A DNA stretch of 63,808 bases, counting the filler, from Trichomonas gallinae (taxonomy: Eukaryota): NCBI GenBank assembly GCA_008369845.1. It is 10 parts of 10 records of this genome, joined end to end, with 100 filler letters (N's around TTAATTAATTAA, not from the genome) between each part and the next. Parts side by side here need not be neighbours in the genome. Positions count along the whole stretch, not along the records: positions 1 to 29,511 come from MRSU01001115.1; 9 more parts are not named here. One strand, written 5' to 3'. A program made the position numbers and the translations under genes. Below, piece by piece: positions 20,092 to 48,327 of this stretch (its first letter is position 1; each line of letters starts with the position of its first letter). The notes beneath the pieces were generated by a model. It ran no database searches and had not been told where the DNA came from. It saw only the letters and a program-made list of their open reading frames with translations.

Positions 20092-20288
20092 TTTTGATAT
20101 ATTTTTTGTTTTTTTATGTTTTAAATTTTTGTTTTATTTTATTCATTTTCCAAAACTATCAATTGATAATGATCTTCAGTTGAAAACTAAACATATTTGC
20201 ATATTATAAGCCATTCAACTTTGACAAAAAGAATATTAAATTAAAAATGATGTGATGTCAATTGACACTTTTCGTCACGTTAATAAAG

Positions 20289-20297
20289 AAAAGTGAC
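20289..20297 (+). promoter_or_regulatory. AAAAGTGAC motif (T. vaginalis M2-like element), repeated upstream of each F5/8-like copy
   Basis: AAAAGTG(A/T)C at 20289, 21305, 22188, 22975 and 23792, i.e. 50-67 nt upstream of each conserved ORF start. Confidence 0.6.
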
Positions 20298-20345
20298 GGA
20301 TGTAAAAAAGTGATGTTGAACTAACATATTCAAAATCAATTCTCT

Positions 20346-20933
20346 TTGGAATATAAGCTTCTCAGGTTCGCACCTAATAAAGAGAAAATCCCTCCTGGAA
20401 TTATTAAATATATATATTCCAAAAACCAATCAGCTGTTAACGTTTCAGCAAGTTCAACAGGAAGAGGCAACGTCGCAAATATATTTAATGGACTTACTTC
20501 TTATTGGGAATCAGCAAACATTTCAAACTCTTGGTATTCTATAAATTTTCCAGATTATCTTCTGAAAATAGATTCTTTATCAATGTTTTCATGCTATTCT
20601 TACTCATGTCCAACTGGATTTAATGTTTATGCTATTTCTGCAGCAGGACAAAAAGAATTAATTTGCGAATTTAATGAAACGACAGATGCGCGATTCAGAG
20701 CACAAACTGGTAACATATCATGTTCTTCTTCAACATTTTATTCAAGTTTTTTATTAGAACAAACAAAAATGTCAGGATCGGAAAATCATATTTTCAGCTT
20801 TTATTTTTTTGAATTTTTTGGAGACCTTTACATTCCGAACCTGCCAAAATATTATCCAAAATCATGTGAAATTAACTATTTTAGAAATTTCAATTTTTTG
20901 ATACATGTTTTTATTTTTTTGTCAGATTCATGA
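20346..20933 (+). CDS. F5/8 type C / galactose-binding-like domain protein, array copy A1 (no in-frame ATG at N-terminus; begins at TTG)
   Basis: GII.YI, SASS, F.G..SYWES...NSWYSI.F, FEFFGDL motifs; paralogous to A2-A5; in-frame TAA at 20322. Confidence 0.75.
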   Translation: MEYKLLRFAPNKEKIPPGIIKYIYSKNQSAVNVSASSTGRGNVANIFNGLTSYWESANISNSWYSINFPDYLLKIDSLSMFSCYSYSCPTGFNVYAISAAGQKELICEFNETTDARFRAQTGNISCSSSTFYSSFLLEQTKMSGSENHIFSFYFFEFFGDLYIPNLPKYYPKSCEINYFRNFNFLIHVFIFLSDS

Positions 20934-21354
20934 ATAAAACAAACTTTATACAGCTTTATTTACCATAAAATTCAATATATCATAAATGAAATATATAAGA
21001 GAAAAATTGGATAAAGATTATCCTTATAAACTGGTTTCCCTAAGGTGACCCCATTATCAGACAAAAAGTGAGAAAAATGGGATTGTTCTAGAGATGTATC
21101 AACGAGGATAGATAAGAGAAAATTATTATCGATGGCAGAAAAATCCAGTGACCCGGGAAAATCGCTAATATGGTCAAAAATTAGTTGGCACCATGGTATC
21201 ATGAGAAGGTAGCATTAAAATTGTATCCGAGTCAATACTTTCAATAGTTTACATTCTGAAACGGTTTCCATTCAAAATTTTTTATATAAAATAACCTGAT
21301 CTTGAAAAGTGACAAAAATGTAGGACTGTTTTTCATTAAAATAGATCTGATTCA

Positions 21355-21942
21355 TTGTCATACAGGTTTTACAAATTTGCTCCATATGAATCAAAAACTC
21401 CTAATGGTATAATCAATTATATCCATACCAAAGAGAATTCTGCAGTAAAATTATCAGCGAGTTCAACAAGAGCAGGAAATATAAACACAATATATGATGG
21501 TCTCAACTCATTTTGGGAATCTCAAAATTCCCCAAATTCTTGGTATGCAATAAATTTTTCGAATAATTATCTTGCAAAAATTAATTCGCTTTCCATGTTT
21601 TCTTGTTATTATAATGAATGTCCAACTGGCTTCAAAGTTTACGCGCTTTCGTCTAATGGAAAAAAAGAAATAATTTGTAATTTCGATGAAGAGCGAGTCA
21701 GTCGACGATTTATGTATCAAACGGGAAATTTAGAATGCTCTTCATCTTCATATTACTCAAACTTCCTTTTAATGCAAACGAAATTAACAAATAATTATAC
21801 AAATGTTTTTAGTATTTATTATCTAGAGTTATTTGGTGAACTTTATAATACAAATGAGATATATGAAACATCAAGATTTATCTATTTTGGCTTTGTATCT
21901 ATTGTTTATTTACCTTTATCTGTTTTCATTGAAATTTCTTAA
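21355..21942 (+). CDS. F5/8 type C-like protein, copy A2 (begins at TTG)
   Basis: Same motifs as A1 (SFWESQNSPNSWYAINF, LELFGEL). Confidence 0.75.
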   Translation: MSYRFYKFAPYESKTPNGIINYIHTKENSAVKLSASSTRAGNINTIYDGLNSFWESQNSPNSWYAINFSNNYLAKINSLSMFSCYYNECPTGFKVYALSSNGKKEIICNFDEERVSRRFMYQTGNLECSSSSYYSNFLLMQTKLTNNYTNVFSIYYLELFGELYNTNEIYETSRFIYFGFVSIVYLPLSVFIEIS

Positions 21943-22240
21943 ACTTTTTATAGTAATGTTGATGAATTTATTGGAAAAGAGGAAATAAAAATATCTTATA
22001 TTCTTATTGTAATTTACAATAACCGTATATTCCAGACTATCTTCCAGAAACTAATTTTCGATCTTCCAGAGTCCAAATTATCTTCCAAAGTTGCATCCCT
22101 AACTATACTAAATGCATTTCCTTGATTTGCTTTCATATTATATGTTAGCCTGCAAAATTTTGATTTTTTTTTTGAAAAAGTGGTTATAAAAGTGACATTT
22201 ATGATGTTATATTGCATTTCTTTAGTGAAAAAGATTTTAA

Positions 22241-22837
22241 CTGGAATATAAGATCCATAGATTCAAATTTGATAACACAAATCCTATACAAGGTATTTTT
22301 AACTATATTACTAGAAAAAACGTTTCTGAGATTAATGCTTCTGTTAGCTCAGCCCGTGCAGGAAACGCATATTCTGCTTTTGATGGATTCAAATCTGCAT
22401 GGGAATCTCGACCAATTGAGAATTCATGGTATGCTTTTAATTTCAATAATTATTTAGTTAAAATTGATTTTTTAACGATGTATTCATGCGGGAAAAATGC
22501 ATGCACAATGGGATTTGATTTGTATGCATTTACATCAAATAACAGGACAGAATTAATTTGTAGATTTAATGAATCCGATAGGGCAAAAGCCGTCGGTGTA
22601 ACATTGAAAGTAAAATGTTCATCTACTACATTTTATTCTAGTTTTGTTCTGCAGCAAACAAAATTAAATACAGATTCAAATTACGTTTTTGGATTTTGGT
22701 ATTATGAGATATTTGGTGATTTGTATAATATTAACACGCCTAAAATTCAAGAATGTACTTGCCGCGTCATAGGTTATGGTAGTAATTTGTTTTTATATTT
22801 ATATGTTTTCATCACGATGATTAATGAAACTTCATGA
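22241..22837 (+). CDS. F5/8 type C-like protein, copy A3 (begins at CTG directly after TAA; the ORF track shows only the 3' part)
   Basis: Manual translation LEYKIHRFKFDNTNPIQGIFNYI...SAWESRPIENSWYAFNF runs in frame into track ORF 22478..22837. Confidence 0.75.
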   Translation: MEYKIHRFKFDNTNPIQGIFNYITRKNVSEINASVSSARAGNAYSAFDGFKSAWESRPIENSWYAFNFNNYLVKIDFLTMYSCGKNACTMGFDLYAFTSNNRTELICRFNESDRAKAVGVTLKVKCSSTTFYSSFVLQQTKLNTDSNYVFGFWYYEIFGDLYNINTPKIQECTCRVIGYGSNLFLYLYVFITMINETS

Positions 22838-23028
22838 ATAATGAATGAAATTAAAATTGATATTTTAACTATATAGATTATATTATTTTAAGCAATAATA
22901 TATGAAGATTAATAAATTTTGGGATAATCATTTGACAAAAAATAAAAAAATGTCAAATATATTTTTGACAATTAAAAAGTGTCATTTTTATTTTGACATC
23001 TCAATGATGTTGAAAAAGGCAATTTTCC

Positions 23029-23625
23029 TTGGAATATAAGATTCATCGATTTGTATATAAAGAAGCAAATCCAACCAATGGCATTATAAGCTATGTTCAT
23101 GCAAAAAATTCTTCTGAATTAAATGTATCTGTCAGTTCTGCGAGAAAAGGCAATGCAGAGATAATTTTTGATGGGAAGAACCATGATTGGGAGTCAAATC
23201 CTATTCCAAATCAATGGTTTTCAATTAAATTTAATAATTTTTTAGTTAAAGTTGATTTTTTGTCAATGTATGGGTGTCATACCGGTAATTGTCCGATGGG
23301 ATTTGATGTTTATGCATTAAATTCCAAAGGTGAAAGAGAATTGATTTGTAAACTGAATGAAACTGATAAAAAGAATGTCATCGACAAAACGATTAAACTA
23401 AATTGCTCATCTACAACATTTTATTCAGATTTCCTTTTACAACAAACAAAACTAAATACTCATAATAATGACATTTTTGGATTTTATTATTTTGAATTAT
23501 TCGGTGATCTATATAATATGAATACACCCAAATACCACATTTGTTCGAATAACGCTGCAAACTATGAATTTAGATTCTCCTGGTTCTATTCAGTTTTTTA
23601 TCTAATTTATAGTGACAATACATAA
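23029..23625 (+). CDS. F5/8 type C-like protein, copy A4 (begins at TTG)
   Basis: LEYKIHRF...DWESNPIPNQWFSIKF...FELFGDL; in-frame TGA at 23011. Confidence 0.75.
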   Translation: MEYKIHRFVYKEANPTNGIISYVHAKNSSELNVSVSSARKGNAEIIFDGKNHDWESNPIPNQWFSIKFNNFLVKVDFLSMYGCHTGNCPMGFDVYALNSKGERELICKLNETDKKNVIDKTIKLNCSSTTFYSDFLLQQTKLNTHNNDIFGFYYFELFGDLYNMNTPKYHICSNNAANYEFRFSWFYSVFYLIYSDNT

Positions 23626-23855
23626 ATATTTTTAATTAAATGCATGACAAAAAAAAATGTCCACGTTTATTGTTCCATGCCGCAAATTCCCAAAAATAAC
23701 TTAAAACCTAATAAAATTAATATAAAAACCTGGTGCAATTACATAAGCGAATTGAGACTCAATACGCTAAGGCTAAACGTGACTTGGGGTTAAAAGTGTC
23801 ATTGTGTCCTCATAAAATATGCTTATTATGATAAAATGATGATTTTAATAGATAT

Positions 23856-24452
23856 ATGCTACCATACAAGTTTTACAGATTCAGCCCTGATTCTTCAAAA
23901 GAGCCGCCAGGCATTATTAAGAAAATTTATGCAAAAGATCCAGCATTAATTTCTTTATCTGCGAGTTCGACAAGTCATGGGAGATTAACTGATATATTTG
24001 ATGGTTACAAATCATATTGGGAATCGAATAATGTTTCAAATTCCTGGTATTCGATTAAATTTAAATATTATTTAATAAAATTAAATTCATTTTCGATGTT
24101 CGCATGTTATAATAAAAATTGTCCGACTGGATTTAATGTATTTGGAATTTCACAGAATGGAGTAAGAGAATTGATTTGTGCTTTTAGTCATTCTGATGAT
24201 ACTTATTTTAGAAATCATATTGCCAACTGGCCTTGCGTATCTAATACATTCTATTCTAACATTACTTTTGAACAGAATAAGTTGACAGGTCAAAATACAA
24301 ATATATTTGGATTTTATTTCTTTGAATTTTTTGGAGACCTATATGATATTAACGCTCCAAGAGTATATCCATGTTCCTGCCCTATAAATGTTTACTTAAA
24401 ATATATCCAAGGCTCATATTTAATGACCGTATTGCCATTCCTAGATATGTGA
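23856..24452 (+). CDS. F5/8 type C-like protein, copy A5 (the only copy with ATG, directly before the conserved Leu)
   Basis: MLPYKFYRF...SYWESNNVSNSWYSIKF...FEFFGDL. Confidence 0.78.
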   Translation: MLPYKFYRFSPDSSKEPPGIIKKIYAKDPALISLSASSTSHGRLTDIFDGYKSYWESNNVSNSWYSIKFKYYLIKLNSFSMFACYNKNCPTGFNVFGISQNGVRELICAFSHSDDTYFRNHIANWPCVSNTFYSNITFEQNKLTGQNTNIFGFYFFEFFGDLYDINAPRVYPCSCPINVYLKYIQGSYLMTVLPFLDM

Positions 24453-29434: not shown

Positions 29435-29506
29435 GGGTGCATAGCTCAGTGGTAGAGCGCAACATTTGCATTGTTGAGGCCGAGGATTCGATCTCCCCTG
29501 CATCCA
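29435..29506 (+). tRNA. tRNA-Ala(TGC)
   Basis: Cloverleaf: acceptor GGGTGCA/TGCATCC with G3:U70, D arm GCTC/GAGC, anticodon stem CAACA/TGTTG with loop TTTGCAT, T loop TTCGATC, discriminator A, downstream T run. Confidence 0.9.
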
Positions 29507-29611: not shown

Positions 29612-31105
29612 ATTTTTGCTGTTACAGGTTTGTAGTTAATCTATTAAACAATCTAATAGATTAACTTGAAGTAACTCGGGGTCGAAATTTTGGAATAAGG
29701 TTATGAGTCGGAAACCCTTTATATTTTACCAAATTACAGTCGATATGAAATATATGATTATTTCTTTGGTTATATACTATACAGAACTTATATTCTCATT
29801 TTGTGTTATTTCTGGATTCATTTAATGAATCTAATGAATAAATTTGAATTCGATTTTAGTGATAAAATAGATTTCATCTGTTTTATCAATAAATATTGCA
29901 TTAAGAATCATGTAGATATTTCAAGCGAATAGCATGAAACTATCCTAATTGAACACCCATTATAATTTGACATATAAAGTAATGATTTTTTTCATAATGT
30001 CAAATTACCATCTTGCTGACTCTTACATGGGTCATTAGTCAGCCACGTTTAAAATTTCCATTTCATTGATTAACACTGGGATTGCTAAATATGCATTCCT
30101 ATATTGCATTATGGAGCTCCTTAGGCACAAAATAAATGTCCACATTTTTTTTGTCAAAAATGTAAATATAAGGTTAATTTTAATGTAAAAAATGTGTATT
30201 TTCATTGAGAAATTTCCAGATTTAGGGATAATCATTTGAAAGAAATTTGCGATTTCCGCCTCCTAGAATAATTATTCAATGAGTTCTTACAAAAAAGTCA
30301 TGTAAAATGAACCTACCTTTTGAAACAACAAAAGAATTTAAGCTACAAAGCAAAAGGAAAAAATCGACGCGGATAGGGTAAGATCATGGCCAAAATGACC
30401 ATATCCTATCACTTCAGATTTAAAAAATATTTAAAATTCATGGAATTTTCGATTTGATATCCAAAATATCCATTGAAAACAATAAACTCTTTTCATAACA
30501 ATAGCAACTATATCATTGCTTATTTTCTTGGCATCTTGGATGACATAATTGATTCATTGAGTACTTGAGGTGATTTTTTGTGGTCCAAAGCAAGCTTTCA
30601 TTAATATAAAAATCTCAGTAATAGTAACTGATATAGTTCAAATATCAGTCTTTTTATTGCTGTTTTGACTATCTGGGAATCCAGTTCCAAATTAGACGTC
30701 TGTAGTTGATATTACATATAGATGTTTGTAATATTAATGGAGGCGATGTTAGCCCTGAGAATTAATACGTTTTGGAGTAGAGCACAGATTACGAAAATTC
30801 AAATTTTCTTGAAAGGAGCTGAAAACGTATAGGAATCGCATTCAGATAGAAGTAGAATGAAGCATGCTAGATTCGTGATGAACTTTTTTGGAAATGATTT
30901 TAAGAGCGATTTGACGTATAAAATAAGTTTACAAGCCAATATTTAAATTGTTTGACAAATAAAATTAATTTACATGCCAATAATATATTCTTCAATGTTT
31001 TGATCNNNNNNNNNNNNNNNNNNNNNNNNNNNNNNNNNNNNNNNNNNNNTTAATTAATTAANNNNNNNNNNNNNNNNNNNNNNNNNNNNNNNNNNNNNNN
31101 NNNNN

Positions 31106-31933
31106 AAATTCAGCGAAAACAAAGAAACAACCGATTTACTTATTGAATCCACCATTTTTGATAGTTGTTCATCGACATCACATGGGGGATCTCTTCATTT
31201 TGAAAAAGGTGAATGCATCCAAGAACGTGTTTGCTACTACAACTCTACTTCAACTCAATGGGGACATGCATATTCATCTGTTGTCACCATACGACAAAGA
31301 AATTATGCAAAAATGTCGAGCTTTTGTTCATGTGGCAATTTTGACAAATCAATTTGTATTAATCCAGATTATGGAATTGTTCAAATTGATAATGTTAATA
31401 TGTCTAATAATATAGGAATTAATAGACCGTTATATGATATTGATAGTGCTGAATCAAATAGTTTCATCCAATACACAGAATTCATAAATAATATCGAAAA
31501 AAGCCCATCAGCCTATACTTATTATGCAGGAGCAGATTTCAAAGTCATGAACTGTAATTTTTTGAAAAATCATGGACAAACAAATCCAATTGATAAATTA
31601 TTGTATTGTTATTCATCTACAACAGTTGAAAATTGCTGTTTCAAAGAAAATAATTGTCAATATGCATTTTATGTTGTATCCGGAAAAACAATGATAGTTC
31701 AAAATTGTTATTATGATATATCAACAACTTCAGGAGGTGCAGTTCAGTTTGTCTCCCCAAAAGGTGACAGCAATCCCGTTTCATTGACGCAATTCTTTAT
31801 AGAGAATTGCTTTGGTGCCCAGCAAAAACGAAACAATTATATCTGCTCATGCAATGATATATATCAATATCAAAGCCTAATAAATTTACTTACAAAATCA
31901 TTTCATATCTCAATATTAATAGAAATTTATTAA
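31106..31933 (+). CDS. Right-handed beta-helix / Pmp-like Cys-Asn-rich protein, copy B1, 3' part (5' part at 37860-38092)
   Basis: Open frame from the contig start KFSENKETTDLLIESTIFDSCSSTSHGGSLHFEKGECIQERVCY into track ORF 31313..31933. Confidence 0.75.
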   Translation, partial: KFSENKETTDLLIESTIFDSCSSTSHGGSLHFEKGECIQERVCYYNSTSTQWGHAYSSVVTIRQRNYAKMSSFCSCGNFDKSICINPDYGIVQIDNVNMSNNIGINRPLYDIDSAESNSFIQYTEFINNIEKSPSAYTYYAGADFKVMNCNFLKNHGQTNPIDKLLYCYSSTTVENCCFKENNCQYAFYVVSGKTMIVQNCYYDISTTSGGAVQFVSPKGDSNPVSLTQFFIENCFGAQQKRNNYICSCNDIYQYQSLINLLTKSFHISILIEIY

Positions 31934-32103
31934 CAGAATCAACAATTGCATTAAATCATTTTAACACATTAGATTAATTCAACAAATAAATATTACTATA
32001 ACAAATACAATATAAAATTTCCAAATCATGATTGATTTGAGTTTGAGTTTCTTTATTATTCTTAGTAGGTAATAGTTTTCCCAATGAAATTTATGATTAA
32101 TTG

Positions 32104-33141
32104 ATGCGAGGAATGTCAAATTTCATATCGGATGGAATTAAGGATAAAAATTTAGCAAAGATTTTTCTTATACTTAAGGATTGGAATTCATATTACGGTA
32201 ATACAGACCATGAATCAATTCAAAACAAAATACCACAAAAAAACTTATTTGTTACATATGGAGCATCATATTATATTTTCCTATGTAACTTTATCTTACA
32301 AAGAACAAATGGAGCCATCAGGTTTACAAAGAATACAGAATCCACGAATCTGCTAGTTGAATTCAGCATATTTGATAGCTGTTCATCGATATTTGATGGT
32401 GGATCCCTTTATTTTAAAGATGGAGAATGCATCCAGGAAAGAATTTGTTATATTAATTCAACATCTGATAACTATGCTCATGCAATATGGACTCAAAGCT
32501 CTACAGGCCGCAAGAACTTCCTTAAATTATCAAGTGTTTTCTCTTGTGGTACATTTGAAAAAAGTACCAGTATTACATTAGGGAGAGGCTTTATTCAAGT
32601 GGAAAATTTCAACATGTCAAACAATATTGGAAGAAGTGCAGGATATTATTTGTATACAGAAGATATATGGAATTTTATTCAATTTTCAGATGTAATAAAT
32701 AATACCGACAAATCACAGACAAATCCTTATTTTCAAAATTGCAATAATTTTAAAATAATGAACTGCAACTATCTAGAAAATCATGCGCAAACTGCAAAAA
32801 TTAATGCATTGTTGTTTTTTTACAAGCAAGCAACTATTGAGAATTCATGTTTCAAGAAAAATAAATGTATTTATATTTTCCAAGCAGATGAAAATTATAA
32901 AGTAACGGTTATTAACTGTTATTATGATATGTCAGCAGTATCAGGAAGTGTTCAATTTAGTTCATCCAAGAGTGATAATAATACGATCTCAATAACTCTC
33001 TTGGATCTTGAAGAATGCTTCAATTTTATAAATATTCAAGCAGCAAAGAAAATTTCAAGTTCATGCAACGATAATTCAAAGCATCACAGCTTGATTAATT
33101 ACCTATCCAAAACAGTCTATACATCAGTTCATAGCGAATGA
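32104..33141 (+). CDS. Beta-helix / Pmp-like protein, copy B2 (has an upstream in-frame ATG)
   Basis: DWNSYYG, NGAIRF, FDSCSS...GGSLYF, CNY..N, NCYYD motifs shared across the array. Confidence 0.78.
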   Translation: MRGMSNFISDGIKDKNLAKIFLILKDWNSYYGNTDHESIQNKIPQKNLFVTYGASYYIFLCNFILQRTNGAIRFTKNTESTNLLVEFSIFDSCSSIFDGGSLYFKDGECIQERICYINSTSDNYAHAIWTQSSTGRKNFLKLSSVFSCGTFEKSTSITLGRGFIQVENFNMSNNIGRSAGYYLYTEDIWNFIQFSDVINNTDKSQTNPYFQNCNNFKIMNCNYLENHAQTAKINALLFFYKQATIENSCFKKNKCIYIFQADENYKVTVINCYYDMSAVSGSVQFSSSKSDNNTISITLLDLEECFNFINIQAAKKISSSCNDNSKHHSLINYLSKTVYTSVHSE

Positions 33142-33499
33142 TATATAATTCAAACATGAAATTTAAAAGTTTTACCTTCCCAAAGATTAACGTGTTAAAA
33201 AATACAATTGGAAAATTATTCTTCGAGTTTAATTCAATTATTATGAAATCCAAATTAATAATTCTACTATGCTTATGAAAATTAAATCCTTCAAAAAATG
33301 AACAAAAATAGAAATAAATTTTCAGATCACAGAAACTCAATATAATGATGAGTATAACCATACTCAAATGCTTTAGTTCAAAGCACAGCATTCAATTCTT
33401 TTGTCATATTTCATATCGGATAATGATAATCATGATGACAATGTAATTAATAATAATTTTCGAGGATTGGATTGATCAAATCCGAAATACAAACAATGA

Positions 33500-33773
33500 T
33501 ACTGTTCGAATATTTTTCAATTCAAGGATCTGCTTTGAATATTATTAATTGTTGTTATGACAATTCAGCAGCAACAGGAAGCATTCATTTATATCATTCA
33601 ATAACAGCAAAAGTACAATTTCTATTACTAAATTGAATGATGAAGAATGTTTCAGTTATTTTTCAATCAGAAAAGACATTAAAAATATCTATTCATACAA
33701 CAATCCGAAACAAAATAGTTTGATAAAATTTCTAGAATTGTGTATTTCAATTTATGTTAAAAAAATAATATAG
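33500..33773 (+). pseudogene. Decayed 3' remnant of a family B gene
   Basis: LNIINCCYDNSAATGSI, a frameshift, then STISITKLNDEECFSYF...NSLIKFLELCISIYVKKII*; matches the B2 C-terminus. Confidence 0.65.
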
Positions 33774-34112
33774 AATTAGTTAAAATTGTGATGAAAGAAA
33801 ATTAGCAAAGCCTGAAACTAACTTAATGGACATGATAACAATGATTATTGCAATAATACTTTTAGAAAAAAGGTTGATGTAAAATAGCAAATTAAATAGA
33901 ATTCGCTTTTATAATAAAATCTGTTACATCATGATAGTTTCTTAATCAAAGAAGTATTCGATAGTTCTGTTTTAGCTTATTCCTGAATTAAATTGCAGCA
34001 TACATACATAAATAACTAAGACTAAATTTACAGATACTTCACAGTAAATTAAAAAATTGAATCATAATGTCACATTTCTTATTCATGAAGTAGTGCTGGA
34101 AAAATATGATAA

Positions 34113-35090
34113 AAATTTATTCTCAGAGATTGGTCTTCATATTATGAAAATACAAATCATATCTCTATTGAAAAGAAAGCGCCACAAAATAGTATTGTAG
34201 TCACCAATGGATCTTCTTATTTTATTTTCGTTTGTTGTTTCATTGAACAAAAAGTCAATTGAGCTATAAAGTTCAGCGCAAATACAGAATTAACAAATTT
34301 ATTATTAGATTCCATAATTTTTTATTGCTGTTCATCCACAACTAGTGGATGATCTCTATTTATTAGATACGGTGAGTGCATCCAAGAACGAGTAAATTAC
34401 GTAGATTCGAAATCTCAGTCTACTTCTAGTGCCTATTTTTCAAGCGTTAGTATAGGGAAACGAAATTATGCGAAGTTATCAAGCATTAGTTCATGTGGCG
34501 ATTATGGGCATTCCTATTGCATTGATCCAAATTTTGGAAATGCACAAATTGATAATGTTAACATATCAAATAATGTAGCTTCTGGTAGATCCGGCTTTGA
34601 TATTGATAATGGTGAAAATAATAGCTTCTTGAAGTTCACTTCTGTTGTGAATAACTCAGATAAAGACGCAGAATCTATTTTAAACTTTTATGGTGGAACA
34701 AATTTAAGCATTATAAAGTGCAATTTTTTAAAGAATTATGGGAAAACAATTCAGATTGGCCAATTATTGAATCTTAATTCAAATACAAGGATAGAAAATT
34801 GTTGTTTCAAAGAAAATGATTGCAGCTATGTATTTTCGATCAGTCCAGGCCTTTCAATAATTGTTCTCAATTGTTATTATGATAAATCCACGACATCAGG
34901 CGATTCAATTCAATTCATCTCTCCTGAAGCTGAAAACAGCATAATATCATTGAGTCATTATTATGCCGAAAATTGTTATGAAATTCAACAGTATAAAAAT
35001 AGGATTGATTACACATGTCATAATATTCATCTTCAAAACATGATTAATTTTGATATTAGATCCATTTATATATTGATTATAATTCGTTAA
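34113..35090 (+). pseudogene. Family B copy B3 with two in-frame TGA stops and no ATG
   Basis: FILRDWSSYY...; TGA at 34260 and 34350 replace conserved Gly codons (NGAI, GGSL); frame otherwise intact. Confidence 0.75.
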
Positions 35091-35553
35091 TTATTGATAA
35101 TATAACAATTTCATCGTGATTATTTTACAGTTTGGATACTTTATTGGATATGGCGCTGTTTAATTAATGATTATGGCTGCAAAAAGAAAAAAAAATGTCA
35201 TTGATGTTATAATGGAAAATCATGATCCCAATATATATATATGGACTGATCCATATATTATGGAAATACAAATAGTTGTTACTGAAGGATCCTCTTATGA
35301 ATAATATCCCAACTAACAGATTAGTAATGATGAGAAAATAAAGTTGGTAGCCAGTATCTTTAAAAATATTCTCAAAAATCAAATATGCAAAATTAATTTT
35401 CACAGATCATTCACCTCACAGCAATATTATAATACTGAAAATATTTTTAACATAGTATATTTTAATAATCATTGTCATTGAATGAAGCTATCTTGATGCA
35501 GCCTTCCAATTTGTCAAATTTCCTATGAAATGAAAATAGTTGATGAAATTTAA

Positions 35554-36525
35554 AGAAATTCAATATTCCACGATTGGAGTACATATTATGGAAATACAAA
35601 TCATCAATCCTTAAAAGGGAAAGAACCAGAAAATAGTTTAATTGTTACAAATGGACTTTCTTATTTAATTTCATTTTGTAGTTTTATTTTATTGAAATCT
35701 AATGGAGCAGTTCAATTTAATTCGGAAATCACAACAACTAAATTACTAGTCGACTCCACGGATTTTAAGCTCTGTTCATCAGTAATACAAGGAGGATCAC
35801 TTTACTTTAAAACTGGAGAATGCATACAAGAGAAAGTTTGTTATTATAATTCGACATCACAGAGCGAAGGTCATGCCTATTATTCTATTATTGCTGTTAA
35901 TCAAAGATGTTTTATGAAATCATGCAGTGCATCTTAATGCGGCAAATATGAAAATAATCGCTGCGTTTATACTAATAATGGAATTGCTCAACTCGATAAT
36001 TTTAATATGTCAAATAATATTGGAAATGGAAATCCGACATATGGTATTGGAAAAGAGGAATTGGGAAGTTTTATTAAATATTTAAATTTGGTGAATAACA
36101 TTGCAAAAGTTCAAACAAATTTTGATTACTGCGATGGTGCTGATTTCAGAATCATAAGTTGTAATTTTTATAAGAATCATGGTATAACTGATCCTATAGG
36201 ACAATTGTTATATTGTATGACATCTACAAATGTAGAAAATAGCTGCTTCAAAGAAAACAAATGTATAACAGTTTTCTGTGTTGCTTCGGAGAAGACAATG
36301 ATTGTTAAAAACTGTTTCTATGACCAATCTGCCACATCATTAGGGACAGTTCAGTTTGAATCTTCAAATATTGACAGTAACACAATCATTTTCAAGATAG
36401 AAAGATGCTTTGCTTATTTCAATATTAATAATTGCACATGTTATGATAATCAAGAATTTAGAAATTTGATCATTTTGCTTCCTAAGTCAATATATATTTC
36501 ATGTTTAATTCAGACATTTGAATAA
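35554..36525 (+). pseudogene. Family B copy B4 with one in-frame TAA and no N-terminal ATG
   Basis: IFHDWSTYYG...; TAA at 35935 replaces the Ser of conserved SCG; continues in frame into track ORF 36007..36525. Confidence 0.75.
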
Positions 36526-36601
36526 GTTTATACATGTTTCTGATGCATTATGTGTCACATTTTATTGAAAATTGATAGAAATAAAATATATTCTATGATA
36601 A

Positions 36602-37573
36602 AAATTTATTTTAAAAGATTGGGTAACATTTTATGGTAATTCATATCACAAATCAGTTGAAAACAAAGCATCACAAAGCTATTTATTTGTTAGTGATGGT
36701 TCATCTTATCACATTCTGCTATGCAGTTTCATTTCTCAAAACTCGAATGGTGCCATACGATATAGTGGAAATACAGCATCTACTGATTTCTTGATAGAAT
36801 CGACAATTTTTGACAGTTGCTCATCAACATCAGAAGGAGGTTCTCTCTATTTTAATCAAGGAGAATGCATACAAAAACAAGTGTGTTATTACAACTCTAG
36901 ATCATCTTCATCCTCTCATGTATATCATTCGACTGTCACTGCCGGACAAAGAAATTTTATACTTTTGGCAAGTATTCAATCTTGTGGAGAATACGAGCAT
37001 AAGTATGGACTAAATTTAAACACTGGATTTATTAAAATTGATAATGTTAATATTTCAAATAATCTAGGGATATCATATCCTATTTACAGTATTAATAATG
37101 CCGAATCTGGCAGTTTTTTCCAATTTACAACTTTTATGAGTAATATACAAAAAAATCAAGGCGCATTTGCTCATTATGCAGGAATCGATTTGAAAATCAT
37201 TAGTTGCAATTACATCAAAAACTCTGGTTTATCAAATCCGATTTCAATTTTGCTTGATATTCATCCCACTTCAAATTTGGAAAACTGTTGCTTTCTGTTA
37301 AATAATTGTAACACAATATTTTATGTTGATACCGGTAAAACTCTATATGTAAAATATTGTTATTATGATAAATCTACAACATCTGGAGGAAATATTCAAT
37401 TTATATCTCCAAAAAGCAGTAGTAATACCATTGAATTGTCTCATATTAATCTTGGAAAATGTTTTGGGAAAACCAAACAAATGAAATGTTACTATAGTTG
37501 CAATGAAAATCAACCATATAATAGTTTGAATGGTATTTTTAAATCTATTTGCGTGACAATTTATGTTTATTGA
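36602..37573 (+). CDS. Family B copy B5, intact frame but no N-terminal ATG
   Basis: TAA at 36599, then KFILKDWVTFYGNSYH...NGAIRY in frame with track ORF 36791..37573. Confidence 0.72.
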   Translation, partial: KFILKDWVTFYGNSYHKSVENKASQSYLFVSDGSSYHILLCSFISQNSNGAIRYSGNTASTDFLIESTIFDSCSSTSEGGSLYFNQGECIQKQVCYYNSRSSSSSHVYHSTVTAGQRNFILLASIQSCGEYEHKYGLNLNTGFIKIDNVNISNNLGISYPIYSINNAESGSFFQFTTFMSNIQKNQGAFAHYAGIDLKIISCNYIKNSGLSNPISILLDIHPTSNLENCCFLLNNCNTIFYVDTGKTLYVKYCYYDKSTTSGGNIQFISPKSSSNTIELSHINLGKCFGKTKQMKCYYSCNENQPYNSLNGIFKSICVTIYVY

Positions 37574-37859
37574 ATTAATAGACTTTTTGATGATTTTAAT
37601 TTGTATTTGTATTCAATTTAGACAAAAATTGACATTATTTTCAAAAAGAAAAAATATTAATAAAACGCAATGAGATTTATTTTAAAACATATTTATAATA
37701 TTAATATCTTATTTTCGAAAATAATATTTTTAAGTCAATAAGATTATTTTGAACCTGAACGGAAAGATGATTTGTCACATGGGAATGATTCATAATTGAG
37801 AATTTCGGAATTATTTGTCAAATATTTGATTTAAACAAATCGGTTTTGAAATTGTATGA

Positions 37860-38092
37860 TTTAATCCTATACTCCAGGATTGGTCAGCGTATTATGGAAA
37901 TGTATATCATATTCCTCTTGAAAAGAAAACACCGGAGAATAGTTTAATTGTTACTGATGGATCTTCATATTTCATTCTCCTATGCAGATTCATCAGACAA
38001 AATGATAATGGGGCAATAAAATTCAGCGAAAACAAAGAAACAACCGATTTACTTATTGAATCCACCATTTTTGATAGTTGTTCATCGACATC
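37860..38092 (+). CDS. Family B copy B1, 5' part (no ATG), truncated by the contig end
   Basis: TGA at 37857, then FNPILQDWSAYYGNVYH...NGAIKFSENKETTDLL; last 74 nt identical to 31106-31179. Confidence 0.72.
38019..38092 (+). repeat. 74-nt terminal direct repeat identical to contig start 31106-31179
   Basis: Base-by-base identity AAATTCAGCGAAAAC...GTTCATCGACATC. Confidence 0.93.
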
Positions 38093-38239
38093 NNNNNNNN
38101 NNNNNNNNNNNNNNNNNNNNNNNNNNNNNNNNNNNNTTAATTAATTAANNNNNNNNNNNNNNNNNNNNNNNNNNNNNNNNNNNNNNNNNNNNAATATGGT
38201 GTATGTACATATAGTATATAGACAAAGTTTGGAGCAAAA

Positions 38240-44701: not shown

Positions 44702-44754
44702 AACCCGGACCCCCACCTTGGCAAGGTGAAATTCTACCATTAGACCAGCGGTGC
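44702..44754 (-). tRNA. tRNA-Gly(GCC), 3'-truncated by the assembly gap
   Basis: Reverse complement GCACCGCTGGTCTAATGGTAGAATTTCACCTTGCCAAGGTGGGGGTCCGGGTT: anticodon stem TCACC/GGTGG, loop TTGCCAA. Confidence 0.85.
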
Positions 44755-45176: not shown

Positions 45177-45773
45177 ATTAGCCAATACCCAGCGGGTAAT
45201 GGCGGATTAGTAACAAAATACTATAACAGGTATAAGGATGCCACGAAATATATATCCTATAATGGTTCAAATCTTAAGATTGATGATAAATGCGATATTG
45301 ATCAAATTTATTTTTGGAATGTTGTCAAATCATATCATACACAGTTTATTTCTACACCTACTGAAAATAAAATATATTTTAACTTTAAACTGAAATCAAT
45401 TATTCAGATTATTCAAATCATAACTTATGAAGAATTTCGATTTCCATTGAAATACAACATATACGGCGTTAGTCATCAAGGTGATACATTTCTAATGTAT
45501 CATCAAACTCAACCAGTTTGTTCAAAATATACTCAAGGCGTTAATTGTGACAAAACAGAAATATACACAATAAATATTCCATTTAACAGCCAAAGGCCTA
45601 TAACTAACATCATTATTTCGAATGATGGACCTGATTCATGTGGAACGTATTGTAATACAATCGGATCCATCGAATTTTTCGGCTATGAATATATTGTCTG
45701 TCCAACAATAAGATATAATAGTCAGAATCGATTGTTATATTTATATCCTTTAATTGATTTTTCAGTTTCTTAA
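45177..45773 (+). CDS. F5/8-type-C-like / galactose-binding-like protein, 198 aa open frame without an N-terminal ATG
   Basis: TGA at 45174, then ISQYPAGNGGLVTKYY...FPLKYNIYG...NDGPDSCG...IGSIEFFG; first Met only ~107 codons in. Confidence 0.65.
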   Translation: MSQYPAGNGGLVTKYYNRYKDATKYISYNGSNLKIDDKCDIDQIYFWNVVKSYHTQFISTPTENKIYFNFKLKSIIQIIQIITYEEFRFPLKYNIYGVSHQGDTFLMYHQTQPVCSKYTQGVNCDKTEIYTINIPFNSQRPITNIIISNDGPDSCGTYCNTIGSIEFFGYEYIVCPTIRYNSQNRLLYLYPLIDFSVS

Positions 45774-45854: not shown

Positions 45855-46790
45855 TCAATTTGATTGATTTGTAATATCAACTAATTGCTGCTTTGATTTA
45901 ATACCACCTGTTGCTCCTATTGATCTAACAGCTATGGAGCCTGCAGCACAGCCTCTTTTTGCAGAGTTGACAATATCTAAACCATCGAAGAGTCCGCTGA
46001 TGAATCCAGAAACCATTGCATCGCCTGCACCTGTAGTATCGACAGCTTCTGCAATGTAAGCTGGAACTTTCGTGCTGATTTCTTTGTTCTTAATGAAAAC
46101 ACCTTCTTTTCCAAGTTTTATTATAACATTTTTAACACCAAATGATAGGAGATCATCGGCAATTTCGTTAATGTCCTTTTTACCAGTAAGCTGTGATGCC
46201 TCCTGGAAATTTGGTAAAAAGTAGTCAATGTACGGTAAACATTTCTTAGCATCATCTAATGTGTGTCTATCTGCGTGCATCATGTCTGCAACTGTGATGC
46301 AATTTTCATTTTTAGCATGCTCAAGAATATATTTAGCAGCTTCTCCATCAAGTGAAAGGCTACCATATAAGCTACCCAATGATACAATTTTTGCGCCTTT
46401 AAATGCAGTAACATCAATATCTTTTGATGTAATCGAGCTGTTTGTTCCTTCTGCGTTACCGATAAAGTTTCTTTCTCCATTTTTATTTATGAGTACGATA
46501 GTAATTGATGTCGGAAACTCAGTTGTGGTAGTGACCGAACTCATATCGATGCCGCGGCTTTGTCCTTCCGCTAAAAGATATGTACCAACACCATCTACGC
46601 CAACCTTACCGCACATTTTTATTTTGTAGCCCATTGAAGAGAGATTTACAGCTTGATTGAAAGCATCTCCACCTGTAGAGAGCTTTACCATTGAAACACG
46701 TGTTATATCACGGTCAAATATACCATTATCTACGCCATCAGCCAGCACATCTGCGACCATTACTCCGACGCAAACGATATCTGCAGACAT
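45855..46790 (-). CDS. PfkB/ribokinase-family carbohydrate kinase
   Basis: GGDAFNQA, GKVGVDGVG, PNFQEA, IKLGKEG, VDTTGAGDAMVSGF; likely start MSADIV at 46790. Confidence 0.95.
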   Translation of the reverse strand: MSADIVCVGVMVADVLADGVDNGIFDRDITRVSMVKLSTGGDAFNQAVNLSSMGYKIKMCGKVGVDGVGTYLLAEGQSRGIDMSSVTTTTEFPTSITIVLINKNGERNFIGNAEGTNSSITSKDIDVTAFKGAKIVSLGSLYGSLSLDGEAAKYILEHAKNENCITVADMMHADRHTLDDAKKCLPYIDYFLPNFQEASQLTGKKDINEIADDLLSFGVKNVIIKLGKEGVFIKNKEISTKVPAYIAEAVDTTGAGDAMVSGFISGLFDGLDIVNSAKRGCAAGSIAVRSIGATGGIKSKQQLVDITNQSN

Positions 46791-47010: not shown

Positions 47011-48027
47011 TTAAAGTAAGATGAAAACTTGAATAAGAAATACTTTTAGATCGATGCATAGAGTTGATATAGGACAAGTTGAATCAGGCTGGAAGGCAGT
47101 TGCAGGAATTCCAGCATTGATATAATCATATTTCTTATTTTGATCTATAATAAAAGCCTTTTTAACATAAAAATTGTTGAATGCGTTTGGTGCAATTGTT
47201 ACATTAGATGGTAAAGTAATATGATTTAAATTACGGATTGAATAGAAACATGAAGCAGAGATAGTTTCTACACCTTCTGGAATAATAATTTCTTTCAGTT
47301 TTGGCATAGCGCCAAAAGTATATTTGTCAAGTATTTTAACATTTGGAGAAAGTATCAAAATTTCTAGGAACTTTATATTTACAAGTCCCCATTTTCCAAT
47401 TTTTGTAATACTATCAGGCAATTTAATGTATTTTAAAATAGAAGTTGAAAATGCGCCATTTTCTATAGAATTAACATTAGGATGATATTCGATTTCAGTA
47501 ACATTTGATGAAACAGCAAGAAGGGCATTGAAATTACTATTATAAATAACATCTTTATACATTTTATATTTTGGATGATTTGTATCTACAGAATAATAAA
47601 CTAAACTTGATCCAAAAGCATTAAAATAAACATATTCAATATTAAGAGATACAAAAAATGAAATGTTAAAATTATTATGCGTGAAAGCATTAGAATGTAT
47701 TGTAGTTATAGAAGGAGAAAGTTTAAGTATTTCAATACTACATAGTCTAAATGCTTCTTGTTCAATTATTTTTAATTTTGAACAATTCGATAAATCAACT
47801 GTTCTTAAATTCGAACAATATGCGAATGCAAAGCTTCCAATTGTCACTAAACCTCTAGGAAATGTAACTGTTTGAAGCGTATCTCTAGATAATATAAATG
47901 CATAATTATTTTCATCGCCGGATTTAATTGTTTGGCATGTATCATCAATCTTTATATCAACTGCATTTTCAACACTGACTAATGTTGTTTTAGTTGTATC
48001 ATCTTCCCAATGAAAAACAGCTCCCAA
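47011..48027 (-). CDS. BspA-like (TpLRR/LRR_5) surface protein, no in-frame ATG at N-terminus
   Basis: LVTIGSFAFAYCSNLRTVDL, VNSIENGAFS, IPEGVETISASCF repeats; TAA-CAC-TTG at the 5' end; first Met ~155 codons in. Confidence 0.85.
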   Translation of the reverse strand: MGAVFHWEDDTTKTTLVSVENAVDIKIDDTCQTIKSGDENNYAFILSRDTLQTVTFPRGLVTIGSFAFAYCSNLRTVDLSNCSKLKIIEQEAFRLCSIEILKLSPSITTIHSNAFTHNNFNISFFVSLNIEYVYFNAFGSSLVYYSVDTNHPKYKMYKDVIYNSNFNALLAVSSNVTEIEYHPNVNSIENGAFSTSILKYIKLPDSITKIGKWGLVNIKFLEILILSPNVKILDKYTFGAMPKLKEIIIPEGVETISASCFYSIRNLNHITLPSNVTIAPNAFNNFYVKKAFIIDQNKKYDYINAGIPATAFQPDSTCPISTLCIDLKVFLIQVFILL

Positions 48028-48327
48028 GTGTTAAATATAATCCGAAGCATCAATTACTAAATTTCATTTGTCACCTTTTAGATTGAAAAATTTTGACACT
48101 TTTAATATTTACAAACGTCATTTTTGTAAAATTGATATTATAACTCACTTTTTAGGGAAAAAATACCACAATTAATATGCCATGTAAACAATCAAAATTT
48201 GATGGATTTTGTTTTGTAAACCATCAAATCTGACGAATAAATAATGTCATTTTTGAAGAATTGCTAACCATTGTCACTTTTCTATTGAAATGTCACTTTT
48301 GCTAGTTGTCACTTTTCAGGTTTCTCT

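What the first reader, a model, noticed from the sequence alone, without database searches (positions are those of the whole stretch)
20340..23870. F5/8-like array: conservation starts exactly at a Leu codon in all five copies
Seen: the N-termini align as L-E-Y-K-L-L-R-F (TTG), L-S-Y-R-F-Y-K-F (TTG), L-E-Y-K-I-H-R-F (CTG), L-E-Y-K-I-H-R-F (TTG) and M-L-P-Y-K-F-Y-R-F (ATG-CTA). The preceding codon is TCT, TCA, TAA, TCC, ATG. In A3 a stop directly precedes the CTG, so the frame cannot extend upstream. All four ATG-less copies use an NTG Leu codon; the only copy with an ATG uses the non-NTG codon CTA. Inference: this is the pattern expected if TTG/CTG is the initiator.
Basis: partly seen in the sequence, partly recalled or inferred. 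Interest (0 to 1): 0.85.

Follow-up and report, generated by a model that had tools for sequence, protein, structure and literature searches.

The report
Parasite surface genes without ATG start
Four of five neighbouring copies of a predicted surface-protein gene in a Trichomonas-type parasite have no ATG start codon yet are conserved like working genes, so they are likely translated from TTG or CTG, which would mean that ATG-only annotation truncates or discards such genes.

Summary
In detail: five tandem paralogues of about 195 codons (A1-A5) with a predicted CBM32/F5-8-like fold and a hydrophobic C-terminal tail, in a trichomonad genome. A1-A4 have no in-frame ATG before codon 80-81 and open with TTG, TTG, CTG, TTG; A5 opens ATG-CTA. 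New here: A1-A4 evolve like working genes. Paralogue dN/dS is 0.17-0.36 at saturated dS. Against orthologues from a related assembly, 3 of 48 substitutions hit conserved columns (11.2 expected, p=0.001). The 78 codons before the internal Met are the best conserved part. Distant homologues begin at the same place, without a signal peptide. So the internal-Met and pseudogene readings fit poorly, and TTG/CTG initiation is the best explanation (about 0.6). It is not shown: no RNA, ribosome or relative's DNA was obtainable. The codon argument alone is modest (tree-aware p 0.01-0.05, up to 0.18). Conservation does not start exactly at the Leu: TC precedes it in 3 of 4, codon 4 ends in G in 5 of 5, and each copy has an upstream out-of-frame ATG. 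In the window, 9 of 11 tail-bearing ORFs lack a start ATG against 0 of 15 others; two of the nine carry stops.

The parts
20346..20933 (+). A1: 195-codon ORF from TTG; no in-frame ATG until codon 80; in-frame TAA 8 codons upstream
   Evidence: orthologue P0002, 94% identical, called from the same codon
21355..21942 (+). A2: 195-codon ORF from TTG; first Met at codon 81; Inr-like TCATT 22 and 3 nt upstream
   Evidence: full-length orthologue P0181
22241..22837 (+). A3: 198-codon ORF from CTG directly after a TAA stop; first Met at codon 80
   Evidence: orthologue P0005 called from the internal Met on a contig of 8,927 nt
23029..23625 (+). A4: 198-codon ORF from TTG; an in-frame AGG lies 4 codons upstream; first Met at codon 80
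   Evidence: orthologue P0001, 92% identical; model used for the fold search
23856..24452 (+). A5: the only copy with ATG, followed by CTA (Leu)
   Evidence: orthologues P0003 and P0052
20290..20297 (+). M2-type promoter motif AAAGTGAC, 56 nt before the A1 TTG
   Evidence: motif named in PMC4223856
21306..21313 (+). M2-type motif, 49 nt before the A2 TTG
22189..22196 (+). M2-type motif, 52 nt before the A3 CTG
22976..22983 (+). M2-type motif AAAGTGTC, 53 nt before the A4 TTG
   Evidence: variant named M2 in PMC9222396
23793..23800 (+). M2-type motif, 63 nt before the A5 ATG
20346..20357 (+). Codons 1-4 (example A1; same stretch at 21355, 22241, 23029, 23859): nucleotide-level constraint, codon 4 always AAG or AGG; function unexplained
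22201..22251 (+). Example of an upstream out-of-frame ATG (A3, 16-codon uORF overlapping codons 1-4). Each of A1-A5 has its first ATG after M2 in this same frame; in A1 and A2 it is followed at once by a stop
47011..48027 (-). BspA-like LRR ORF elsewhere in the window with the same layout: M2-like motif 49 nt upstream, out-of-frame ATG at -40, TTG two codons after an in-frame stop, first Met more than 150 codons in

Best explanation
A1-A4 lack an ATG start but are conserved like working genes, and are likely translated from the TTG or CTG codon that opens their conserved reading frame. Shown: each copy has its own M2-type promoter motif 49-66 nt before that codon, an intact frame, and protein-level constraint that begins well upstream of the first Met. 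Inferred: transcription starts about 8-27 nt before the codon at an Inr-like site, so the mRNA leader holds no AUG. The 40S subunit loaded on this very short leader would start at the near-cognate UUG/CUG, probably with Met-tRNAi, giving Met-Glu/Ser-Tyr-Lys/Arg, the same N-terminal position as in A5 and in distant homologues. Inferred history: the ATG was lost, perhaps once, in the ancestor of A1-A4; the neighbouring NTG codon took over and has been kept through saturating synonymous change, while A5, which has an ATG, was free to use CTA. Speculative: the weak start keeps most members of a surface-protein repertoire at low output. The product is predicted to be one galactose-binding-like (CBM32/F5-8) beta-sandwich with a hydrophobic C-terminal helix and no signal peptide.
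For: Long-term selection: paralogue dS 1.3-2.6, dN/dS 0.17-0.36. Recent selection: 3 of 48 substitutions against orthologues fall in conserved columns, 11.2 expected, p=0.0014. Mean BLOSUM of substitutions +0.38 against -0.42 under neutral simulation, and divergence 7.2% like the 8.1% of ATG-bearing A5. Residues 2-79 of A1, A2, A4 differ by 8 of 235 against 27 of 350 downstream, and hold three predicted beta-strands plus the N-terminal strand of the model. N-terminus in the right place: 17 residues before the invariant Gly from the Leu, 18 in A5, 14-22 in 30 of 34 distant homologues. In the related assembly A1, A2, A4 were called from this codon, and A3 (CTG is not a start that bacterial gene callers use; own knowledge) from the internal Met. 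Only columns 1 and 4 (and one unconserved column) are G/C-ending in at least 4 of 5 copies; column 1 loses this in A5, column 4 does not. UUG and CUG are known eukaryotic starts (PMC5666671, passages).
Against: No direct evidence of transcription start or translation. The NTG statistic is post hoc and modest (0.012-0.18), and a general G/C excess over the first 8 codons could produce part of it. Context is poor by Kozak rules: T at -3 in all four, and no stable fold around the start (z -0.4 to -1.1). If transcription starts further upstream, out-of-frame ATGs enter the leader. [quoted passage not shown] Two of the window's nine ATG-less tail-bearing ORFs have in-frame stops, so ATG loss also goes with decay here. 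A single origin of the ATG-less state is weakly supported (48/89).
Confidence: 0.6

Rival explanations
1. Translation starts at an upstream out-of-frame ATG and reaches the main frame by recoding: a +1 shift, an unusual splice or edit, or reinitiation after a tiny uORF.
For: The first ATG after M2 lies in the same frame (main frame = +1) in A1-A5 and the BspA-like gene. Three beta-helix paralogues have an ATG exactly 13 nt before their conserved Ile, again in that frame. ATGT occurs upstream of all four ATG-less copies and not of A5. In A3 and A4 the uORF overlaps codons 1-4 and ends there.
Against: In A1 and A2 that ATG is followed at once by a stop, and the main frame is closed by a further stop before the Leu, so one frameshift cannot join them. 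No trichomonad type A or B intron motif lies in 20200-24000 (consensus from PMC13548475 section 21). The 15 GT/GC-AG pairs that would give an in-frame ATG differ in place and length between copies, and most would remove the conserved codons 1-4. Upstream ATGs of 12 ordinary genes fall in that frame 4 times of 9, so the coincidence is weaker than it looks.
Confidence: 0.15
2. A1-A4 are pseudogenes or silent donor cassettes; only A5 is expressed.
For: T. vaginalis has thousands of pseudogenes, many transcribed with promoter motifs but no start motif (PMC4223856, passages). Neighbouring beta-helix copies with no ATG carry 2 and 1 in-frame stops. I could not see the DNA of the orthologues.
Against: Substitutions avoid conserved columns (p=0.0014). 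Only 3.5% of 400 neutral simulations left all four frames free of stops, and divergence equals that of A5. No conversion tracts: the longest identical stretch between copies is 9-20 nt, and only isolated differences between A5 and its orthologue match paralogue residues. Each copy keeps its own M2 motif and stop.
Confidence: 0.12
3. Initiation is non-AUG but at another codon, most simply AAG/AGG at codon 4, and TTG/CTG is kept as part of a DNA or RNA element over the start region.
For: Codon 4 is AAG or AGG, both one base from ATG, in 5 of 5 copies (simulated p 0.005). A start there leaves 14 residues before the invariant Gly, as in 2 of 34 homologues. A4 has an in-frame AGG at -4 and A1 an ATT at -6.
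Against: A5 keeps AAG although it has an ATG, so the codon-4 G is not specific to initiation. Leu1 and Tyr3 vary only synonymously. The review passages list CUG as generally the most efficient near-cognate codon; that AAG and AGG are the weakest is my own knowledge.
Confidence: 0.1
4. Translation starts at the conserved internal Met (residue 80 or 81).
For: The Met is present in all five copies, and two database orthologues are called from it.
Against: Codons 2-79 are stop-free (2-7 of 5,000 shuffles are), have pN well below pS, and are better conserved than the rest. They hold part of the predicted beta-sandwich. One of the two short calls has a full-length cluster mate (P0181).
Confidence: 0.03

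Closest known systems
Non-AUG-initiated eukaryotic genes: yeast GRS1 (UUG) and ALA1 (ACG), mammalian DAP5/eIF4G2 (solely GUG) (PMC5666671, passages)
   Same: A near-cognate codon opens a conserved reading frame upstream of the first AUG.
   Different: Those are single genes with direct evidence (that GRS1 and ALA1 use it to add an N-terminal extension is my own knowledge). Here it would be the only usable start of most members of a paralogous array, in a lineage where I found no report, and it is inferred only.
F5/8 type C / CBM32 galactose-binding-like domain proteins (PF00754, PF22633)
   Same: Predicted jelly-roll fold matches CBM32, fucolectin and APC10 structures (Foldseek probability 1.0, E about 3e-7, TM about 0.5). 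An F5/8 cluster is second in the ESM Atlas at 0.95, and a mostly parabasalian cluster scores 0.94.
   Different: No Pfam hit reaches the cut-off (best 13.4 bits against 27.8). Identity to solved structures is 9-18%. Ligand unknown.
Transcribed pseudogenes of Trichomonas vaginalis (PMC4223856, passages)
   Same: Promoter motifs (M2, Inr) present, ATG start motif absent.
   Different: A1-A4 have intact frames and show purifying selection, old and recent.
Trichomonad spliceosomal introns, types A and B (PMC13548475, section 21)
   Same: Short introns near 5' ends could in principle supply a missing ATG.
   Different: Their fixed branch-point/3' motif is absent from the array.

Membership tests
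Non-AUG-initiated gene | No in-frame AUG upstream of the conserved N-terminus | tested here: met
   A1-A4: in-frame stops 1-8 codons before the Leu, first Met at 80-81
Non-AUG-initiated gene | Coding constraint between the candidate codon and the first AUG | tested here: met
   8 of 235 changes, all conservative, against orthologues; pN 0.27-0.34 against pS 0.59-0.79 between paralogues
Non-AUG-initiated gene | Near-cognate codon kept beyond synonymous expectation | tested here: inconclusive
   4 of 4 NTG; tree-aware p 0.012-0.18; confounded by G/C excess in codons 1-8; orthologue DNA not seen
Non-AUG-initiated gene | Favourable context (purine at -3, downstream hairpin) | tested here: not met
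   T at -3 in 4 of 4; G at +4 in 3 of 4; no significant fold. ATG genes of the window have A at -3 in only 4 of 12, so the rule may be loose here
Non-AUG-initiated gene | mRNA 5' end upstream of the codon; initiation shown by footprints, peptides or reporter | not testable with these tools
   No RNA run could be laid on the array
F5/8 type C domain (PF00754/PF22633) | Profile score above the curated cut-off | tested here: not met
   1 of 5 copies gives a weak PF22633 match, 13.4 against 27.8 bits
F5/8 type C domain (PF00754/PF22633) | Galactose-binding-like beta-sandwich fold | tested here: met
   Model of A4, mean pLDDT 74.8; top Foldseek hits CBM32 and fucolectin
F5/8 type C domain (PF00754/PF22633) | Carbohydrate or lipid binding | not testable with these tools
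   No assay
Pseudogene | Neutral evolution, stops or frameshifts | tested here: not met
Trichomonad type A/B intron | GTAYGT or GTWYWD donor with a CTAAC...YAG acceptor | tested here: not met
   No strict motif in the window or in 20200-24000
Silent gene-conversion cassette array | Shared identity tracts or mosaic expressed copy; donors without own promoter | tested here: not met
   Longest identical tract 9-20 nt; no mosaic in A5 against one orthologue; M2 motif before every copy

The most novel reading that the evidence does not exclude
Trichomonads start a whole class of tail-bearing surface-protein genes (F5/8-like, BspA-like, beta-helix) at near-cognate codons, marked by a dedicated nucleotide element over the first codons, as a way to set or switch the output of their surface repertoire; many loci now counted as pseudogenes, lncRNAs or signal-less fragments are then full-length genes.
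Probability: 0.3. Interest if true: 0.88.

Novelty: new variant of a known kind. Interest (0 to 1): 0.66.

Why it matters
Trichomonas genomes are annotated on the assumption that genes start with ATG, and the one published test I found argued against alternative starts. If A1-A4 are translated from TTG/CTG, that assumption fails for a surface-protein family. Gene counts, pseudogene and lncRNA counts and predicted N-termini would need revision, and the long-standing question of why this parasite keeps and transcribes so many apparent pseudogenes becomes directly testable. The array also offers a natural control: four ATG-less copies and one ATG copy side by side.

Tried and rejected
No whole genome is held, so the genome-wide codon test could not be run. 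No RNA holder was listed for the array; this is no evidence either way. Scans for DNA of relatives found none: metagenome contigs, viral contigs, prokaryote genomes. A scan with the PfkB gene returned one bacterial locus, of no use. Broad alignments had no stretch conserved enough to scan with. Exact look-up of 10 window proteins: 0 of 10 in the collection. A profile search with 40 family members gave 8 proteins, none named. Earlier findings of the scan: none in three look-ups. RNA structure at the starts: no significant fold in 6 regions. GAATATAAG occurs 6 times in the window against 1.3 expected, 3 of them being the paralogues themselves; not pursued. A lost signal peptide ending Phe-Ser was considered and rejected: homologues have no room for one and A3 has a stop there. 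Assembly error was rejected because the related assembly shows the same pattern of calls and the long neighbouring ORFs are intact. The primary paper on the M1-M5 motifs was not held, so the usual M2-to-start distance was not checked against it.
Full report
Setting. The window is trichomonad DNA: BEACH, kinesin, Myb and BspA-type LRR genes without introns, and a PfkB kinase 81% identical to a T. vaginalis G3 protein and 56% to one of Tritrichomonas foetus. It is a chain of contigs joined by N linkers; the array lies inside the first contig, between intact ORFs of 2,255 and 1,397 codons. No whole genome is held.

The observation. Five paralogues lie head to tail at 20346, 21355, 22241, 23029 and 23856, 38-56% identical. 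A1-A4 have an in-frame stop 1-8 codons upstream and no Met until residue 80 or 81. Each copy has an AAAGTG(A/T)C motif 49-66 nt before the Leu; the motif occurs 13 times in the window against 4.2 expected and is the M2 promoter motif named for T. vaginalis (PMC4223856 and PMC9222396, passages).

What the protein is. Pfam gives nothing above cut-off for the 5 copies. An AlphaFold2 model of A4 (mean pLDDT 74.8) is a beta-sandwich with a C-terminal helix, and its best structural matches are CBM32 and fucolectin domains; the ESM Atlas agrees. So it is built like an F5/8 type C domain but is not a scored member. The tail is hydrophobic; surface location is a prediction. Trichomonad BspA and Pmp proteins are also described as often lacking detectable signal peptides (PMC6701047, passages).

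Are the ATG-less copies alive? Between paralogues dS is 1.3-2.6 and dN/dS 0.17-0.36. Protein searches found orthologues of all five copies in unnamed Logan assemblies. Four of them are listed on contigs of the same length, 8,927 nt, which suggests one contig. Against these, 48 substitutions in 704 positions of A1-A4 hit columns invariant in the other four paralogues 3 times, 11.2 expected (p=0.0014). With the shorter A2 orthologue the count was 3 of 45 (p=0.0027). The substitutions were conservative (mean BLOSUM +0.38; neutral simulation mean -0.42, 95th percentile -0.03, highest of 400 runs 0.40). Only 3.5% of simulations left all four frames without a stop, though intact frames are also what a database would hold. 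Divergence (7.2%) did not differ from A5's (8.1%, p=0.64). Taken singly only A3 reached p below 0.05, and A5 itself showed no significant avoidance.

Where must translation start? Residues 2-79 of A1, A2 and A4 differ from the orthologues at 8 of 235 positions, against 27 of 350 downstream; paralogue pN is below pS there too. This excludes the internal Met for practical purposes. I aligned 34 of the 46 distant hits (partial and fused ones left out): 30 of 34 have 14-22 residues before the invariant Gly, against 17 from the Leu and 18 in A5. Their initial M may stand for ATG, GTG or TTG; I could not see their DNA. The start therefore lies within a few codons of the Leu, and no signal peptide is missing. 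In A3 it cannot lie upstream. The orthologues of A1, A2 and A4 were called from the Leu position and that of A3 from the internal Met, as expected if TTG, TTG, TTG and CTG are shared; this is inference from gene calls.

How strong is the codon argument? TTG+CTG make 24-28% of Leu codons, and only 1 of 57 internal Leu pairs is NTG in both copies. On a tree the chance of four NTG tips is 0.012-0.046, or 0.044-0.18 with halved distances. A tree with outgroups puts A5 outside A1-A4, but weakly (SH-aLRT 89 in a quick tree; 48/89 in a careful one on 20 rows). Conservation extends upstream: TC precedes the Leu in 3 of 4, which may be an Inr-like context, since 2 of 12 ATG genes of the window also have TCA or TCT before the ATG. 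And codon 4 is AAG or AGG in all five although internal conserved Lys columns are AAA in 14 of 15 cells; the first 8 codons are G/C-ending in 19 of 40. Some nucleotide element covers the start region.

Rivals. The first ATG after M2 is in the same out-of-frame register in A1-A5 and the BspA-like gene, and in three beta-helix genes at exactly -13. But in A1 and A2 it is an ATG-stop with further stops in the main frame. No trichomonad intron motif is present (consensus in PMC13548475 section 21). In 12 ordinary genes 4 of 9 upstream ATGs share that register. By the Inr spacing reported for T. vaginalis genes (about 9-20 nt, PMC9222396 and PMC13515687, passages) most of these ATGs would lie outside the mRNA; A4 is the doubtful case. 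Cassette conversion finds no support. No stimulatory hairpin was found.

Wider pattern. Among stop-to-stop ORFs of 145 codons or more with a readable 5' end, 9 of 11 with a hydrophobic tail lack an ATG at their conserved N-terminus, against 0 of 15 others (Fisher p 2e-5). The classes were assigned by hand after seeing the data. I left out four ORFs lying on the opposite strand of longer genes and two that begin in N runs, and counted the split beta-helix genes once each. The nine belong to four families, and two carry in-frame stops. Either ATG-less starts are a class feature, or surface families decay from the 5' end; for A1-A4 the selection data favour the first.

Literature. Five searches (listings only) returned no paper whose title or abstract start reports non-AUG initiation in Trichomonas; the library lacks most subscription journals. 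Woehle et al. 2014 (PMC4223856; passages and the text layer of supplementary file 2, figure not seen) state that alternative starts do not appear to be used; the labels show one lncRNA locus. Kearse and Wilusz 2017 (PMC5666671, passages) give UUG, ACG and GUG starts for GRS1, ALA1 and DAP5. PMC12316389 was seen as abstract and outline, PMC12289875 as passages, PMC13548475 as abstract and sections 21 and 23; their supplements were not read and might list non-ATG gene models.

Verdict. The mechanism is a known kind; its use as the only start of most members of a paralogous array in a trichomonad is, as far as my searches reach, unreported. The nucleotide constraint on codons 1-8 and the register of the upstream ATGs remain unexplained. 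Interest 0.66.

Noticed in passing
window 31058-38093 (+): Tandem array of parabasalian beta-helix (Pmp-like) genes with hydrophobic tails (ESM Atlas 0.97). Copies at 34116, 36605 and 37869 have an out-of-frame ATG exactly 13 nt before the conserved Ile codon (ATT/ATA); 34116 has 2 in-frame stops, 35560 has 1, 36605 is intact with first Met at 178; 32101 has in-frame ATGs upstream.
   Followed up: partly
window 47011-48027 (-): Intact BspA-like LRR ORF with no early Met; TTG two codons after an in-frame stop, M2-like motif at -49, out-of-frame ATGs at -40 and -23.
   Followed up: partly
window 45177-45773 (+): 198-codon ORF with hydrophobic tail, opening with ATT directly after TGA, first Met at 107; aligns loosely with the F5/8-like family and may be a decayed member.
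   Followed up: partly
window 20346-20369, 21355-21378, 22241-22264, 23029-23052, 23859-23882: First 8 codons end in G/C in 19 of 40 cases against about 18% elsewhere (p 3e-5); codon 4-5 read AAG/AGG then a pyrimidine-ending hydrophobic codon in all five. Possibly a downstream promoter or initiation element; unexplained.
   Followed up: partly
window 48273-48315: Three M2-type motifs in reverse orientation within 45 nt, between the divergent BspA-like and WD40 genes.
   Followed up: no
window 29435-29506 (+); about 44702-44753 (-): tRNA-Ala(TGC) at a contig end; a partial tRNA-like sequence at the start of another contig (seen, not called by ARAGORN).
   Followed up: no
window 29512, 31006, 38093, 40845, 44602, 51392, 55769, 56881, 62400: The window is a concatenation of contigs joined by N44-TTAATTAATTAA-N44 linkers; the array lies inside the first contig, far from a joint.
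   Followed up: yes
window 45855-46790 (-): PfkB kinase, 81% identical to a T. vaginalis G3 protein and about 40-48% to bacterial ones; probably an old lateral transfer.
   Followed up: no
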